From a virus (taxonomy: Duplodnaviria; Heunggongvirae; Uroviricota; Caudoviricetes), in IMG/VR virus record IMGVR_UViG_3300014205_000176: a DNA stretch of 64,000 nucleotides; one strand, given 5' to 3'. Under the pieces are notes generated by a model, which saw only the letters and a list, made by a program, of their open reading frames with translations, made no database searches and had not been told where the DNA came from. Position numbers and translations under genes: made by a program. This document shows, one piece after another, positions 48,777-51,035 of this stretch; positions within the stretch are counted from its first letter, which is position 1, and the number at the start of each line of letters is the position of its first letter.

Positions 48777-51035
48777 ATGGCCAACGATTACTCAGCAATG
48801 AACGTGTATCGCCACGACAACGTGAACCTCATCACGGGCGCGAAGTCTCAGGTGAAGGCCTGGACCGTTGGCGTTCCCGTGGAAGATGGTGCGCTGAAGC
48901 AACTCTACAACGTTGCCAACATGCCGTTCATTTTCAAGCACGTTGCCGCAATGCCGGACGTCCACGTGGGCGAGGGCGCAACCATCGGCTCAGTCATTCC
49001 AACCACCACGGCGATCATGCCGGCGGCTGTTGGGGTAGATATTGGGTGCGTAGATGCAGATACCGAGTTCCTTACTCTAAATGGGTGGAAGAGAATTGCA
49101 GACTATCAAGATGGAGATTCTGTTCTGGTATTCACACCAGGATGTGATCCGTATCGTAGGCTGAATTGTGAAAGTGCATTTTTCGAAACTCCAAAGTATA
49201 TCAAACTTGAATGTGATGAATTTTGGAAAATCAAAACCAAATATGGAGTAAACCAAGTACTCTCCGATGAACACCGGGTACTATACTACAAGTACACGCG
49301 AGCATATGATTTTGTGCAGGATGACGTAATGTCTGCTAAAGATCTTGCAGAAAAGCACAATTCATTAAAGCTTGGGTTTCGCGGCAGGTTTTTGACCACA
49401 TTTAATTTGGTTAGAAACACATCTGTCAAAATGTCAGATTCGCAAATCAGGGTTATGATCATGGTTTGCGCCGACGGATCTTTCGGATCTTCTGGCCAAG
49501 ATAGCTCTTTGTGTTATCTTCGCCTGAAAAAGATTAGGAAGATTGAAAGAGCACAACTTCTATTAAAAGATGCGTGTATTGATTTTAAGTTGTCTATTTC
49601 CTCTGTAGATGATGTAACTACTATTTCCTTCTACGCTCCAGAAAAATTCAAAAGTCTTGAGAATTTTTGGCAAGCATCTCCAGATCAATTGAGAGTAATT
49701 TGTGACGAGGTTTTCCATTGGGACGGAAACTTCAATGATAGTGTGTACTTTACTCGTGACAAAGCCTCGGCTGATTTTATGTCATATGCATTTGCTGCAT
49801 GCGGTAAGCGCTCTGTAATGAGAGAAGATACAGATGCTAGCGATGGTAAGATTGACTATAGAGTATTTGCTCACACAAATACAAAAGTTGGTATTGCAGC
49901 AACTCCAGAGAAGAATGATTTTGAACGTGTAAAATCACCAGATGGATTAAAATATTGCTTCACAACCAGTACTGGTTATTGGGTAATGCGTCGTGGTGGA
50001 GTAATCGCTATCACAGGTAATTGTGGAATGATGGCTGTGCAGACCACGCTGAAGGGCTCTCATCTGCCACAATCCAAAGGTTTGCAGAGCTTGTCTGCGA
50101 TTCGAGCCGAGATTGAAGCTGCAGTTCCGCATGGCCGTACTGATAATGGCGGTCTTCGTGACGTTGGTTCGTGGCGCGGAGAAGTCCCAACTATCGTAGA
50201 GATTGCTTGGATGGCTTTAGAACCTGGCTACAAGAAGATCATTGCCAAGCATTCAAAGCTGCAAACGCGCCAACCTCCGGAGAACCAATTGGGAACTTTA
50301 GGAACTGGCAACCACTTCATCGAGCTATGCTTGGATGAGGATGATAGCGTTTGGGTGATGTTGCACTCGGGAAGCCGTGGTGTTGGCAACCGCATTGGTT
50401 CCTACTTCATTGATCTTGCAAAGCGTGAGGCGGAGAAGTGGTTCTTCAATGATAGTTTGCCGGATATTCACCTTGCGTTTTTACCAGAAGATAGTTTGTA
50501 TTTTGATGACTTCATTCAGGCAACTCAATGGGCTCAGCAATTCGCGGCCACAAACCGCGAGTTGATGATGCGTACCGTGCTCAAGACTTTGAAGGGATGC
50601 AAAGGCATTCCGAAGTTTGAGGTTACGGACATCGAAGTCAACTGCCATCACAACTATGTCGAAAAGGAATTCCATTTCGGCAAGAAAGTCTGGGTTACTC
50701 GCAAGGGCGCTATTCGCGCTCAAATGGGCGAGCTTGGAATCATCCCAGGTTCGATGGGAGCTAAGAGCTTCATTGTGCGCGGCCTTGGAAACCGAGAAAG
50801 CTTTTGCTCGGCATCTCACGGTGCAGGTCGAAAGATGAGCCGCACTGAAGCTCGCAACACGTTCACTCTGAAGGATCACCGAGCAGCAGTTGAAGGTGTG
50901 GAATGCCGCATTGATGCTGATGTGATTGATGAAACTCCAGGGGCTTACAAGGACATTGATGCTGTCATGGAAGCACAGAAAGACCTTGTGGCCATCGAGC
51001 ATACGCTCAAGCAAGTTCTGTGTATCAAGGGATAG
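48777..51035 (+). CDS. rtcB: RtcB RNA ligase interrupted by an intein
   Basis: Exteins: 'PDVHVGEGATIGSV...AAVGVDIG|CGMMAV' (rejoins the RtcB GxDIGCGM motif), 'NHFIEL', 'HSGSRGVG', 'NCHHNYV', 'SASHGAGR'. A 325-aa insertion begins with Cys and ends Asn-Cys. Confidence 0.85.
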   Translation: MANDYSAMNVYRHDNVNLITGAKSQVKAWTVGVPVEDGALKQLYNVANMPFIFKHVAAMPDVHVGEGATIGSVIPTTTAIMPAAVGVDIGCVDADTEFLTLNGWKRIADYQDGDSVLVFTPGCDPYRRLNCESAFFETPKYIKLECDEFWKIKTKYGVNQVLSDEHRVLYYKYTRAYDFVQDDVMSAKDLAEKHNSLKLGFRGRFLTTFNLVRNTSVKMSDSQIRVMIMVCADGSFGSSGQDSSLCYLRLKKIRKIERAQLLLKDACIDFKLSISSVDDVTTISFYAPEKFKSLENFWQASPDQLRVICDEVFHWDGNFNDSVYFTRDKASADFMSYAFAACGKRSVMREDTDASDGKIDYRVFAHTNTKVGIAATPEKNDFERVKSPDGLKYCFTTSTGYWVMRRGGVIAITGNCGMMAVQTTLKGSHLPQSKGLQSLSAIRAEIEAAVPHGRTDNGGLRDVGSWRGEVPTIVEIAWMALEPGYKKIIAKHSKLQTRQPPENQLGTLGTGNHFIELCLDEDDSVWVMLHSGSRGVGNRIGSYFIDLAKREAEKWFFNDSLPDIHLAFLPEDSLYFDDFIQATQWAQQFAATNRELMMRTVLKTLKGCKGIPKFEVTDIEVNCHHNYVEKEFHFGKKVWVTRKGAIRAQMGELGIIPGSMGAKSFIVRGLGNRESFCSASHGAGRKMSRTEARNTFTLKDHRAAVEGVECRIDADVIDETPGAYKDIDAVMEAQKDLVAIEHTLKQVLCIKG
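49047..50021 (+). mobile_element. intein with LAGLIDADG homing endonuclease domain inside rtcB
   Basis: Insertion 'CVDADTEFLTLNGW ... GGVIAITGN' followed by +1 Cys; internal 'VMIMVCADGSFG' and 'ICDEVFHWDGNFN' LAGLIDADG-like blocks; removal restores the conserved RtcB DIGCGM motif. Confidence 0.7.

What the first reader, a model, noticed from the sequence alone, without database searches (positions are those of the whole stretch)
49047..50021. LAGLIDADG intein splitting the RtcB active-site motif
Removing residues 91-415 rejoins …VGVDIG|CGMMAV…, recreating the conserved RtcB GxDIGCGM metal-binding motif. The insert starts with Cys, ends with Asn, and the +1 residue is Cys. It carries two LAGLIDADG-like blocks. 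The penultimate residue is Gly rather than the usual His, an atypical block G that may affect splicing chemistry. Archaeal RtcB has an intein at a comparable site, so this suggests intein homing between domains or phages.
Basis: partly seen in the sequence, partly recalled or inferred. Interest (0 to 1): 0.55.

Follow-up and report, generated by a model that had tools for sequence, protein, structure and literature searches.

The report
Mobile intein inside phage RtcB ligase
The RNA-repair ligase gene rtcB in this phage-like genome is interrupted, exactly at its metal-binding cysteine, by a self-splicing protein element (an intein with its own homing endonuclease); this is real and looks recently mobile, but it is an ordinary member of a large, already known kind of phage intein.

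Summary
ORF 48777-51035 (+) encodes a 752-aa RtcB. Residues 91-415 (nt 49047-50021) are a 325-aa in-frame insert, ...VGVDIG|CVDADTEF...VIAITGN|CGMMAV.

- **Not a native domain.** Intein-free homologues read straight across the junction, including syntenic relatives with about 90% identical exteins.
- **It is an intein.** The same insert occurs in unrelated host proteins: P-loop ATPases, PhoH, primase/helicase, terminase, RNR-beta and DNA polymerase. An AlphaFold2 model (pLDDT 90) matches endonuclease-containing inteins (TliVMA, PI-SceI, PI-PfuI) and I-DmoI.
- **It looks mobile.** GC is 39% in the intein against 52% in the exteins. Intein-positive alleles share about 90% identical inteins but only 72-78% identical exteins. 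Intein dN/dS is 0.07, including the endonuclease.
- **The penultimate Gly is not an anomaly.** It is a family hallmark (134 of 139 representatives). It comes with invariant Cys1 and a near-invariant Cys (138/139) at block F position 4. The Bethlehem RDF intein has the same signature and splices well.
- **Archaeal link.** Archaeal RtcB inteins sit at the identical site but are an unrelated, canonical lineage. Phage-to-phage homing is supported; cross-domain transfer is not.

Verdict: new member of a known kind, of modest interest.

The parts
48777..51035 (+). rtcB precursor ORF: 752 codons plus stop, made of N-extein, intein and C-extein
   Evidence: ORF listed. Pfam RtcB E 3e-116 and phrog_1075 tRNA splicing ligase E 3e-134. 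Identical to NCBI protein P0017 apart from the start codon chosen.
48777..49046 (+). N-extein, residues 1-90, ending ...AAVGVDIG. Asp88 is the Mn2 ligand equivalent to Pho Asp95.
   Evidence: Alignments. Metal ligands from PMC9745838.
49047..50021 (+). Intein, 325 aa (Cys1...Asn325): a HINT splicing domain with a nested LAGLIDADG homing endonuclease
   Evidence: The gap against intein-less RtcBs is exactly this span. Syntenic colinearity with L089 is broken only here. The AF2 model has pLDDT 90.1. Foldseek finds TliVMA, PhoVMA, PI-SceI and PI-PfuI inteins at E 3e-14 to 3e-9. Full-length homologues occur in at least 8 unrelated host proteins.
49047..49097 (+). Splicing block A (CVDADTEFLTLNGWKRI). 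Cys1 is the presumed first nucleophile.
   Evidence: Cys1 is present in 139 of 139 family representatives. hhalign pairs this block with block A of archaeal RtcB inteins.
49245..49286 (+). Splicing block B (GVNQVLSDEHRVLY): Ser73 at B:7, His76 at B:10, Val78 at B:12
   Evidence: His is present in 139 of 139. B:7 is S, T or C. B:12 is V, I, L or M and never Trp.
49335..49910 (+). LAGLIDADG homing-endonuclease domain, approximate bounds (intein residues ~97-288)
   Evidence: Secondary structure of the AF2 model. Foldseek matches I-DmoI and I-Tsp061I over about 165 columns. dN/dS is 0.06 over precursor residues 191-370 (nt 49347-49886), a span lying inside this domain.
49440..49484 (+). LAGLIDADG motif 1 (SQIRVMIMVCADGSF), with catalytic Asp143
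   Evidence: Asp in 136 of 139 and the following Gly in 132 of 139.
49680..49733 (+). LAGLIDADG motif 2 (PDQLRVICDEVFHWDGNF), with catalytic Asp226
   Evidence: Asp in 133 of 139 and the following Gly in 131 of 139.
49950..50000 (+). Splicing block F (KYCFTTSTGYWVMRRGG). Cys304 (codon 49956-49958) sits at F:4, where canonical inteins have Asp. Arg315 and Arg316 are conserved.
   Evidence: MAFFT and hhalign place YC opposite the YD of archaeal RtcB inteins and the WC of the Bethlehem RDF intein. Cys in 138 of 139, Arg315 in 139 of 139.
50001..50021 (+). Splicing block G (VIAITGN): Thr323 at G:5, Gly324 at G:6 (penultimate), Asn325 at G:7
   Evidence: T/S in 139 of 139, Gly in 134 of 139, Asn in 139 of 139.
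50022..51035 (+). C-extein, residues 416-752 plus stop. Cys416 is both the +1 splicing nucleophile and the metal-bridging Cys of RtcB (Pho Cys98, Eco Cys78). His513, His530, His625 and His681 are conserved.
   Evidence: invariant columns. PMC9745838.

Best explanation
This is a bifunctional intein: a HINT protein-splicing domain with a nested LAGLIDADG homing endonuclease. It is inserted in phage rtcB between Gly90 and the metal-bridging Cys of the GVDIG|CGM motif.

**Inferred mechanism, protein level.** This follows from established intein chemistry and is not shown here.
1. The 752-aa precursor cannot bind Mn/GTP, because Asp88 and Cys416 are 325 residues apart.
2. Cys1 makes the N-S acyl shift, activated by block B Ser73 and His76.
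3. Cys+1 (Cys416) takes over the N-extein by trans-thioesterification.
4. Asn325 cyclises without help from a penultimate His.
5. An S-N shift yields a 427-aa RtcB with an intact active site plus a free 325-aa endonuclease.

**Inferred mechanism, DNA level.** The endonuclease cuts intein-less rtcB alleles at the GGx|TGY GGx ATG site during co-infection. Repair then copies the intein in, which is homing.

**Family.** It belongs to a large phage-borne intein family. The family's signature is Cys1 ... Cys(F:4) ... Thr-Gly-Asn | Cys/Ser/Thr. It targets G|[CST]G glycine-rich nucleotide-binding loops, mostly P-loops. RtcB is a secondary target.
For: **Insert boundaries and intein-free alleles.** The boundaries are exact against intein-less RtcBs. 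P0018 and P0019 have 89-99% identical exteins and no insert. L089 is syntenic at 82-84% nt identity, and colinearity breaks only at 49050-50086.

**Same element in unrelated host proteins.** Full-length homologues occur in other phage RtcBs (PS119XW 45%, JBP901 43%, Lederberg 38%). They also occur in KIL4 primase/helicase, AM24 PhoH, P-loop ATPases, terminase, RNR-beta, DNA polymerase and mycobacteriophage primase.

**Fold.** The AF2 model has pLDDT 90.1 and pTM 0.89. Foldseek top hits are endonuclease-containing inteins and I-DmoI.

**Catalytic residues conserved across 139 family representatives.** Cys1 139, His B:10 139, Asn 139, and +1 always Cys, Ser or Thr. Endonuclease residues: D143 136, D226 133, K165 138.

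**Purifying selection.** dN/dS is 0.067 for the whole intein and 0.06 for the endonuclease.

**Mobility.**
- Intein GC3 is 0.32 against 0.57 in the exteins.
- Window versus P0027: intein 90.5% aa and 85% nt identical, exteins 72-78% aa and 69% nt. Intein dS is 0.81 while extein dS is saturated.
- P0001 (with intein) and P0020 (without) have 98% identical exteins.
- The first 15 nt after the junction match the intein-positive allele 13/15 but the otherwise closer intein-less allele only 9/15.

**Experimental precedent.** The Bethlehem RDF intein has the same C...TGN signature. It splices completely in E. coli, and its endonuclease is toxic there (PMC5050341).

**Not an intron.** No RNA intron family matches the region.
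Against: - Splicing and endonuclease activity were not and cannot be tested here.
- The insert alone hits no Pfam or NCBIfam intein or LAGLIDADG model, even at E <= 1-10. It hits no PDB sequence.
- The penultimate His is missing and no His lies in blocks F or G, so the catalyst of Asn cyclisation is unknown.
- Block F position 4 is a near-invariant Cys, not Asp. Which cysteine attacks first is therefore not settled by sequence.
- The co-conversion signal rests on about 15-30 nt and three alleles.
Confidence: 0.93

Rival explanations
1. It is an intein, but it splices by a class 3-like or hybrid route. The near-invariant block F Cys304, not Cys1, attacks the N-terminal junction and forms a block F branched thioester. 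That thioester is then passed to Cys+1. Cys1 would be dispensable or would have a regulatory (redox) role.
For: - Cys at F:4 in 138 of 139 and Thr/Ser at G:5 in 139 of 139. These are two of the three class 3 WCT signature positions (PMC2807308; PMC5222942).
- The family is phage-borne and inserted mainly in P-loops (95 of 139), like class 3 inteins.
- Standard inteins usually have Asp at F:4 (PMC2807308).
- A few WCT inteins do carry Ser1 or Cys1.
Against: - Cys1 is invariant (139/139) and block B keeps the class 1 Ser/Thr B:7 and His B:10.
- Trp B:12, which class 3 inteins need to activate the N-junction, is absent. The position is V, I, L or M.
- Kelley et al. filed the Bethlehem RDF intein as class 1, and it carries this same signature.
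Confidence: 0.1
2. It is a splicing-competent intein whose endonuclease is no longer active. It would then be a vertically inherited, domesticated passenger rather than a currently mobile element.
For: - Many inteins carry decayed endonucleases.
- No cleavage data exist for this copy.
- Only one copy is present in the window.
Against: - The endonuclease region has dN/dS 0.06.
- D143, D226 and K165 are conserved in at least 133 of 139.
- The intein is much less diverged than its host gene between alleles, and presence/absence varies among 98%-identical exteins.
- GC3 is 25 points below the exteins.
Confidence: 0.1
3. The 325-aa segment is a lineage-specific RtcB domain, or a non-splicing insertion that leaves a dead or moonlighting RtcB.
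For: - The insert alone has no Pfam or NCBIfam intein hit.
- Public annotation calls the protein simply 'RtcB family protein'.
Against: - Of 524 phage records with RtcB matches, the 40 best-scoring listed, at 56-60% identity, lack the insert.
- Homologues with exteins about 89-99% identical, in syntenic position, lack it exactly.
- The same segment sits in unrelated proteins.
- All splice-junction residues are conserved.
- The extein dN/dS of 0.087 shows that rtcB is under selection.
Confidence: 0.01

Closest known systems
RtcB inteins of Pseudomonas phage vB_PaeM_PS119XW, Bacillus phages JBP901 / BCP8-2 / BMBsp2, and Corynebacterium phage Lederberg
   Same: They share the insertion site (GVDIG|C ... 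TGN|CGM) and the architecture. They are 311-317 aa and 38-45% identical over the full length. Cys1, His B:10, ADG and WDG, YCF and TGN are all conserved.
   Different: They sit in phages of other hosts with 40-53% identical full-length RtcB precursors. In those GenBank records the gene is annotated only as RtcB or RNA ligase, with no intein feature.
Mycobacteriophage Bethlehem RDF (phosphoesterase) intein, a class 1 intein with penultimate Gly (Kelley et al. 2016, PMC5050341)
   Same: It has Cys1, Cys at block F:4 (VWCLRV) and block G ...LTGN, with Gly penultimate. It carries a LAGLIDADG endonuclease and is phage-borne. It has been shown to splice completely, and its G316H mutant splices more slowly.
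   Different: It sits in a different host protein and site (NHD|C...TGN|S, with +1 Ser). Only the C-terminal 37 residues align detectably (35% identity, pairwise E 0.005).
Archaeal RtcB inteins (Thermococcales and others; P. horikoshii PH1602 type)
   Same: The insertion point is identical, immediately before the metal-bridging Cys (GYDIN|C ... N|CGVR). The +1 residue is Cys and they carry endonucleases.
   Different: They are 457-500 aa with canonical blocks: Asp at F:4, HNF, and penultimate His or Ser. They show no detectable sequence similarity to the window intein (BLASTP E > 0.1). The host RtcB is the 480-aa archaeal type, not the about 420-aa bacterial/phage type.
Class 3 inteins (MP-Be DnaB, Msm/Mch DnaB-1, Dra Snf2)
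   Same: They have Cys at F:4 and Thr at G:5, are associated with phages or prophages, and prefer ATPase P-loops.
   Different: Class 3 inteins lack, or do not need, an N-terminal nucleophile. They require Trp at B:12 and keep the penultimate His. This family has invariant Cys1, a hydrophobic B:12 and Gly at G:6.
Endonuclease-containing inteins of known structure (TliVMA 7qsu, PhoVMA 7qst, PI-SceI 1vde, PI-PfuI 1dq3) and I-DmoI
   Same: They share the two-domain fold, a HINT horseshoe plus a pseudo-dimeric LAGLIDADG core. Foldseek gives probability 1.0 and E 3e-14 to 3e-9, with TM-score 0.57-0.64 normalised to the query.
   Different: Sequence identity is 8-15%. This intein is more compact (325 aa) and has no extra DNA-recognition region as large as that of PI-SceI.

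Membership tests
Intein (HINT protein-splicing element) | An in-frame insertion that is absent from otherwise colinear homologues of the host protein | tested here: met
   The gap against RP31 and Psa21 RtcB is exactly residues 91-415. P0018, P0019 and P0020 lack it. Synteny with L089 is broken only here.
Intein (HINT protein-splicing element) | Nucleophile at intein residue 1 (Cys/Ser/Thr) and at C-extein +1 | tested here: met
   Cys91 and Cys416. Across the family, Cys1 is 139/139 and +1 is C63 / S56 / T20.
Intein (HINT protein-splicing element) | Block B Thr/Ser-x-x-His | tested here: met
   LSDEHRV, with His 139/139.
Intein (HINT protein-splicing element) | C-terminal Asn (block G:7) | tested here: met
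   Asn415, 139/139 in the family.
Intein (HINT protein-splicing element) | Penultimate His (G:6). This is typical but not obligatory. | tested here: not met
   Gly414, with Gly in 134 of 139 family representatives. Inteins without it are known to splice (PMC5050341).
Intein (HINT protein-splicing element) | HINT fold | tested here: met
   AF2 pLDDT 90.1. Foldseek top hits are all inteins.
Intein (HINT protein-splicing element) | Match to curated intein profile models (Pfam Intein_splicing / Hint; NCBIfam intein N- and C-terminal regions) | tested here: not met
   The insert alone has no hit at E <= 1 in Pfam or E <= 10 in NCBIfam. Only NF052663 'RtcB_rel_intein2' aligns the last 23 intein residues, as part of an RtcB match. 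This is a limit of the models, not a defining biochemical feature.
Intein (HINT protein-splicing element) | Actual excision and extein ligation | not testable with these tools
   This needs a splicing assay or junction-peptide mass spectrometry.
LAGLIDADG homing endonuclease (two-motif, monomeric) | Two LAGLIDADG helices, each ending in an acidic residue followed by Gly | tested here: met
   ...VCADG (D143) and ...HWDG (D226). These are conserved in 136 and 133 of 139. Helices 131-143 and 212-225 appear in the model.
LAGLIDADG homing endonuclease (two-motif, monomeric) | The alpha-beta-beta-alpha-beta-beta-alpha pseudo-dimer fold | tested here: met
   Foldseek matches I-DmoI and I-Tsp061I at E 6e-6 to 1e-4 over about 165 columns.
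LAGLIDADG homing endonuclease (two-motif, monomeric) | Site-specific cleavage of the intein-less allele | not testable with these tools
   The evidence is indirect only: dN/dS 0.06 and discordance between intein and extein divergence.
Class 1 intein | An N-terminal Cys/Ser/Thr that forms the linear (thio)ester | tested here: inconclusive
   Cys1 is present and invariant. Its use as the first nucleophile cannot be shown from sequence.
Class 3 intein | Trp at block B:12 | tested here: not met
   Val78 in this copy. The family has V84 / I24 / L10 / M7 and no Trp.
Class 3 intein | Cys at block F:4 | tested here: met
   Cys304 aligns with the F:4 Asp of canonical inteins. It is present in 138 of 139.
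Class 3 intein | Thr at block G:5 | tested here: met
   Thr323. The family has T129 / S10.
Class 3 intein | No requirement for an N-terminal nucleophile (usually absent) | tested here: not met
   Cys1 is present in 139 of 139. Whether it is dispensable is not testable here.
RtcB 3'-phosphate/5'-OH RNA ligase (host protein) | RtcB family profile, plus the metal ligands and the guanylylated His after conceptual splicing | tested here: met
   PF01139 E 3e-116. Asp88, Cys416, His513, His530, His625 and His681 are invariant in alignments A1 and A2. The Asp88 and Cys416 equivalents are mapped to Pho RtcB Asp95 and Cys98.
Same intein allele as archaeal RtcB inteins | Same insertion site | tested here: met
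   11 archaeal loci read GYD(I/V)N|C...N|CGVR.
Same intein allele as archaeal RtcB inteins | Detectable homology of the intein sequences themselves | tested here: not met
   BLASTP E >= 0.16. hhalign finds only generic block A/B and F similarity, with probability 6-12%.

The most novel reading that the evidence does not exclude
This intein represents a very large phage intein family that Pfam does not detect. A phmmer search finds at least 1,484 clusters at 50% identity. Both Cys1 and a block F:4 Cys are essentially invariant, G:5 is Thr, and the penultimate His is replaced by Gly.

The most novel reading is that the family splices by a dual-cysteine or hybrid mechanism. It could then be the missing evolutionary intermediate between class 1 and class 3 inteins. 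Its three active-site cysteines (Cys1, Cys304, Cys+1) might also make RtcB maturation redox-gated.
Probability: 0.12. Interest if true: 0.6.

Novelty: new member of a known kind. Interest (0 to 1): 0.3.

Why it matters
**For annotation.** The gene is deposited simply as "RtcB family protein" on a 463-kb contig labelled Candidatus Pacearchaeota. The mature enzyme is 427 aa, not 745-752 aa. The intein family escapes the Pfam and NCBIfam intein models, so such inserts go unflagged in phage and metagenome records.

**For biology.**
- It adds a clear case of an intein that appears actively mobile among huge-phage rtcB alleles.
- It shows that the RtcB metal-bridging Cys site has been colonised independently by unrelated intein lineages in archaea and in phages.
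- It documents that one phage intein family targets G|[C/S/T]G nucleotide-binding loops across P-loop ATPases, RtcB and probably methyltransferase motif I. That fits the proposal that such loops enable extein switching.

**For mechanism.** The conserved Cys1 / Cys-F:4 / Thr-Gly-Asn signature is a cheap, testable handle on how class 3 inteins may relate to class 1.

None of this overturns current understanding.

Tried and rejected
- **Profile and sequence searches with the insert alone.** Pfam and NCBIfam gave no hit. A PDB sequence search gave only I-MsoI at E 1.1. Family assignment therefore had to come from PHROGs, tblastn and structure.
- **Megablast of 47000-53000 against phage genomes.** No match, so no close cultured relative exists.
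- **Literature on the P. horikoshii insertion site.** The 'PH1602' plus 'intein' search returned irrelevant papers, and the RtcB structure papers do not mention the intein. I replaced this with a direct scan of archaeal genomes.
- **Papers not available.** Tori & Perler 2011 (PMC3133030) is not held. A search for Tfu2914 / Dra Snf2 found nothing. The status of WCT inteins that have Cys1 or Ser1 therefore rests only on Tori 2010 and 2017.
- **Global hhalign of the family against archaeal RtcB inteins.** It mis-aligned the C-terminus because of the length difference. Redoing it on the last 45 residues, together with MAFFT, gave the F:4 assignment.
- **DNA of P0001.** Unavailable, so dN/dS and flank comparisons use only L093 and L089.
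- **Group I/II intron hypothesis.** No Rfam match except a sub-threshold miRNA hit. The insert is in-frame and protein-like, so this was rejected.
- **Second copy of the intein in the window.** None found.
- **Distance from Cys304 to the scissile bond.** Not measurable, because model coordinates are not exposed.
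Full report
**1. The observation**

The window has one long ORF at 48777..51035 on the + strand, encoding 752 aa. Pfam recognises it as RtcB (PF01139, E 3e-116), but in two stretches. The larger stretch starts at residue 410.

Residue 91 (codon 49047-49049) is Cys. Residues 413-415 are Thr-Gly-Asn, ending at nt 50021. Residue 416 is Cys.

The insert is compositionally foreign. GC is 0.392 against 0.517 for the two exteins, and GC3 is 0.32 against 0.57.

**2. It is an insertion, not an RtcB domain**

The conceptually spliced 427-aa protein finds 524 phage records by tblastn. 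The best align as single uninterrupted pieces at 56-60% identity. They include Ralstonia RP12/RP31, Pseudomonas Psa21/D6, the Erwinia Ea35-70 group and Caulobacter phiCbK.

In a multiple alignment, RP31 (AVGVDLG|CGMSAQ) and Psa21 (AVGVDIG|CGMAAQ) have a gap that is exactly window residues 91-415.

Closer relatives exist in metagenomes:
- P0018 (N-extein 98.9%, C-extein 89.3% identical) is 422 aa and has no insert. P0019 (91.1% and 89.6%) is the same. P0020 and P0021 also lack it.
- P0019 lies on contigs syntenic with the window: NAD ligase, PcfJ, Tpt1, Thg1..., RtcB, DUF2158.
- At the DNA level, window 43.4-56 kb aligns colinearly with L089 at 77-89% identity, mostly 82-84%. The only break near rtcB is at window 49050-50086.

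**3. It is an intein with a LAGLIDADG endonuclease**

The insert alone hits no Pfam or NCBIfam model and no PDB sequence. It does match positions 76-405 of phrog_32482, a "PhoH-like" family, at E 2e-40.

tblastn finds full-length (1-325) homologues in 139 phage records. Those inspected sit inside different host proteins:
- RtcB: PS119XW 45%, JBP901 / BCP8-2 43%, Lederberg 38%.
- KIL1-5 primase/helicase.
- Acinetobacter AM24 PhoH.
- Vibrio phage RecD-like and PhoH proteins.
- Terminase large subunit, RNR beta, DNA polymerase and mycobacteriophage primase.

Translating these loci shows the same termini each time: G|CVD...TGN|T/S/C. In the ATPases the element sits inside the Walker A loop, for example GSASG|...|TGKST and GFAG|...|TSKT. 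One element in many unrelated host proteins is the classic signature of an intein.

An AlphaFold2 model built on 14 family sequences is confident (pLDDT 90.1, pTM 0.89). Its best PDB matches are the endonuclease-containing inteins TliVMA, PhoVMA, PI-SceI and PI-PfuI (E 3e-14 to 3e-9). The free LAGLIDADG enzyme I-DmoI follows, matching the central domain.

The two LAGLIDADG helices end in ...CADG (Asp143) and ...HWDG (Asp226). No RNA intron family matches the region.

**4. Where it sits in RtcB**

The junction Cys aligns with Cys98 of P. horikoshii RtcB. That residue bridges the two Mn ions and is essential. Asp95, equivalent to window Asp88, is the other ligand from this motif (PMC9745838).

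The precursor therefore has its active site split. Only splicing can restore GVDIGCGM. As is usual for inteins, the +1 nucleophile is a catalytic residue of the host enzyme.

**5. The penultimate Gly and block F**

A phmmer scan of 1.84 billion cluster representatives finds 1,484 proteins at E <= 1e-3 and 416 at E <= 1e-30. Nearly all of the 150 best hits listed cover query residues 1-325, at varied positions in proteins of 324-1,333 aa.

I aligned 139 full-length representatives, including the window:

| Position | Residue counts (of 139) |
|---|---|
| Intein residue 1 | Cys 139 |
| Block B:10 | His 139 |
| Block B:12 | V/I/L/M, never Trp |
| Tyr303 | 139 |
| Cys304 | 138 |
| Arg315 | 139 |
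| Block G:5 | Thr/Ser 139 |
| Block G:6 | Gly 134 (His only 3) |
| Block G:7 | Asn 139 |
| C-extein +1 | Cys 63, Ser 56, Thr 20 |

Alignment of the C-terminal 45 residues places window Y-C opposite the Y-D of the archaeal inteins and the W-C of the Bethlehem RDF intein. Cys304 therefore occupies block F position 4.

The Bethlehem RDF intein has the same signature (NHD|CSW...VWCLRV...HLTGN|S). It splices to completion in an E. coli reporter. Restoring His (G316H) slows it, and its endonuclease is toxic to E. coli (PMC5050341).

By the published criteria the family is class 1 by its Cys1 and block B. Those criteria are class 1 = N-terminal nucleophile, and class 3 = Trp B:12 / Cys F:4 / Thr G:5 with no required N-terminal nucleophile (PMC2807308; PMC5222942). 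Yet the family carries two of the three class 3 signature residues. Sequence cannot decide which cysteine attacks first. I rate canonical class 1 chemistry as most likely and a class 3-like route at about 0.1.

**6. Evidence that it is, or recently was, mobile**

Three intein-positive rtcB alleles (window, P0027, P0001) have inteins 88-90% identical. Their exteins are only 65-86% identical pairwise. Each has closer intein-less relatives: P0018 for the window, and P0020, with 98% identical exteins, for P0001.

Window versus L093 (P0027):

| Region | nt identity | dS | dN/dS |
|---|---|---|---|
| Intein | 85% | 0.81 | 0.067 |
| Exteins | 69% | saturated | 0.087 (C-extein) |

Within the intein, dN/dS is 0.079 for the N-terminal splicing part, 0.06 for the endonuclease and 0.047 for the C-terminal splicing part.

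The first 15 nt after the junction (CGMMAV) match the intein-positive allele 13/15. They match the otherwise closer intein-less allele only 9/15. That is compatible with a short co-conversion tract, but the sample is small.

**7. The archaeal comparison**

I scanned one genome per species with the P. horikoshii C-extein and recovered 80 RtcB loci. Eleven of them carry a 457-500-aa insert at the identical position, GYD(I/V)N|C...N|CGVR. They come from Thermococcus, Bathyarchaeia, Thermoplasmata, Desulfurococcales and Micrarchaeota.

These inteins have canonical blocks: YD at F:4, HNF, and HN or SN at the end. They show no detectable similarity to the window intein (BLASTP E >= 0.16; hhalign probability 6-12%).

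The site is therefore shared across domains but the element is not. This is convergent colonisation of a conserved active-site motif, not evidence for cross-domain homing.

The window intein's nearest non-RtcB relatives sit in P-loops of the form G|CGKT (45% identity). Others sit in VG|CG(I/P)GT motifs that look like methyltransferase motif I. Across the family, position -1 is Gly in 130 of 139, +2 is Gly in 131, and +3 is Lys in 100 or Met in 17.

I infer that RtcB's G|CGM was acquired by extein switching from G|CGK sites. This agrees with the suggestion that nucleotide-binding loops favour such switches (bioRxiv 10.1101/2025.01.02.630785).

**8. What is known already**

- RtcB is a listed intein host: 27 bacterial and 10 archaeal inteins (PMC4760082).
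- RtcB-like ligase inteins were recently reported in actinobacteriophages.
- NCBI maintains "intein-containing RtcB" models. NF052663 aligns to window residues 393-752 but falls below its cut-off.
- Phage class 1 inteins lacking the penultimate His are documented and tested.

This is a new member of a known kind. What may be under-described is the size of the family, its invisibility to Pfam, and its invariant Cys1 plus Cys-F:4 pair.

**9. Context**

The window is part of NCBI GCA_023228245.1 contig JALOBN010000001.1. The contig is 463,377 bp and labelled Candidatus Pacearchaeota archaeon.

The gene content looks like a huge phage rather than a DPANN archaeon:
- a bacterial/phage-type RtcB of about 420 aa;
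- an NAD-dependent DNA ligase;
- Tpt1, a Thg1-like gene and ThyX;
- a GIY-YIG / NUMOD3 endonuclease;
- Cas3-like and Cas7-like genes with a CRISPR array;
- almost all genes on one strand.

rtcB sits in an RNA-repair neighbourhood together with Tpt1 and Thg1.

**10. Verdict**

The Gly is normal for this family. The archaeal inteins at the same site are unrelated. Interest is modest (0.3). The only route to higher interest is the untested possibility of a hybrid class 1/3 mechanism.

Noticed in passing
window 39494-40610, with ORFs 34359-36737 and 36760-37836: There is a CRISPR array of about 16 copies of a 36-nt repeat (ATTTAAATCCCTTCCGACAAGTGAAGGGGTCGAAAC), with a period of 70-73 nt. It lies downstream of a Cas3-like HD+DEAD helicase ORF and a Cas7/DevR-like ORF, so this phage-like contig appears to carry its own CRISPR-Cas system.
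   Followed up: partly
whole window; source contig JALOBN010000001.1 (GCA_023228245.1), 463,377 bp: The contig is deposited as Candidatus Pacearchaeota archaeon. The window's genes are phage- or bacterial-type: NAD-dependent DNA ligase, a ~420-aa RtcB 60% identical to jumbo-phage RtcBs, ThyX and homing endonucleases, nearly all on one strand. It is probably a mis-binned huge phage.
   Followed up: partly
window 27590-28315 (+), next to ThyX at 26243-27295: A free-standing GIY-YIG + NUMOD3 homing-endonuclease ORF lies directly after the thymidylate synthase gene. It is a second mobile element in the window.
   Followed up: no
window 41868-43775, 45455-46057, 46641-47426, 48777-51035, 28296-28922: These genes form an RNA/DNA end-repair neighbourhood: NAD-dependent DNA ligase, Tpt1/KptA RNA 2'-phosphotransferase, a Thg1-like tRNA-His guanylyltransferase and RtcB. 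An Rv2179c-like 3'-5' exoribonuclease lies farther upstream. The order from ligase to RtcB is conserved in L089 and L090.
   Followed up: partly
proteins P0031, P0035, P0038 (relatives of the window RtcB, HMMER E 8e-198 to 1.5e-184; identity not reported): These rtcB alleles lack the intein at the Cys98-equivalent site. They carry a different intein, visible to Pfam (PF14528/PF14890), at a second active-site position...AVN|CFRGDT...LTSN|CHHNY, next to the Mn1-ligand His. rtcB in this phage group is therefore invaded at two sites by unrelated inteins.
   Followed up: partly
family representatives P0146, P0150, P0151: Some members of the same intein family sit in VLEVG|CGIGT, FLDVG|CGPGT or GANVG|CGIDI sites. 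These look like SAM-methyltransferase motif I, which would extend the family's targets beyond P-loops and RtcB to other glycine-rich nucleotide-binding loops.
   Followed up: no
L004 (Pseudomonas phage KIL4) CDS 1430-4231 and 4346-...: The KIL4 primase/helicase and DNA polymerase CDSs are annotated as two-piece joins. The depositors apparently spliced out the inserts at the DNA level, although the primase/helicase insert is an in-frame intein of this family.
   Followed up: no
P0001 C-terminus: The intein-positive allele P0001 diverges from its 98%-identical intein-less twin P0020 right after GTGNHFIE and ends early, at 541 aa. This could be a frameshift, an assembly error or a further insertion.
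   Followed up: no
window 50066-50080 region (C-extein residues ~431-440): Compared with its closest intein-less relatives, the window RtcB has a 5-codon longer and poorly conserved stretch (HLPQSKGLQSLSA against HLPKSLAEIRSA) about 45-75 nt downstream of the intein. Local nt identity falls to 58% against 84% overall. It may be a variable loop or a recombination scar from homing.
   Followed up: partly
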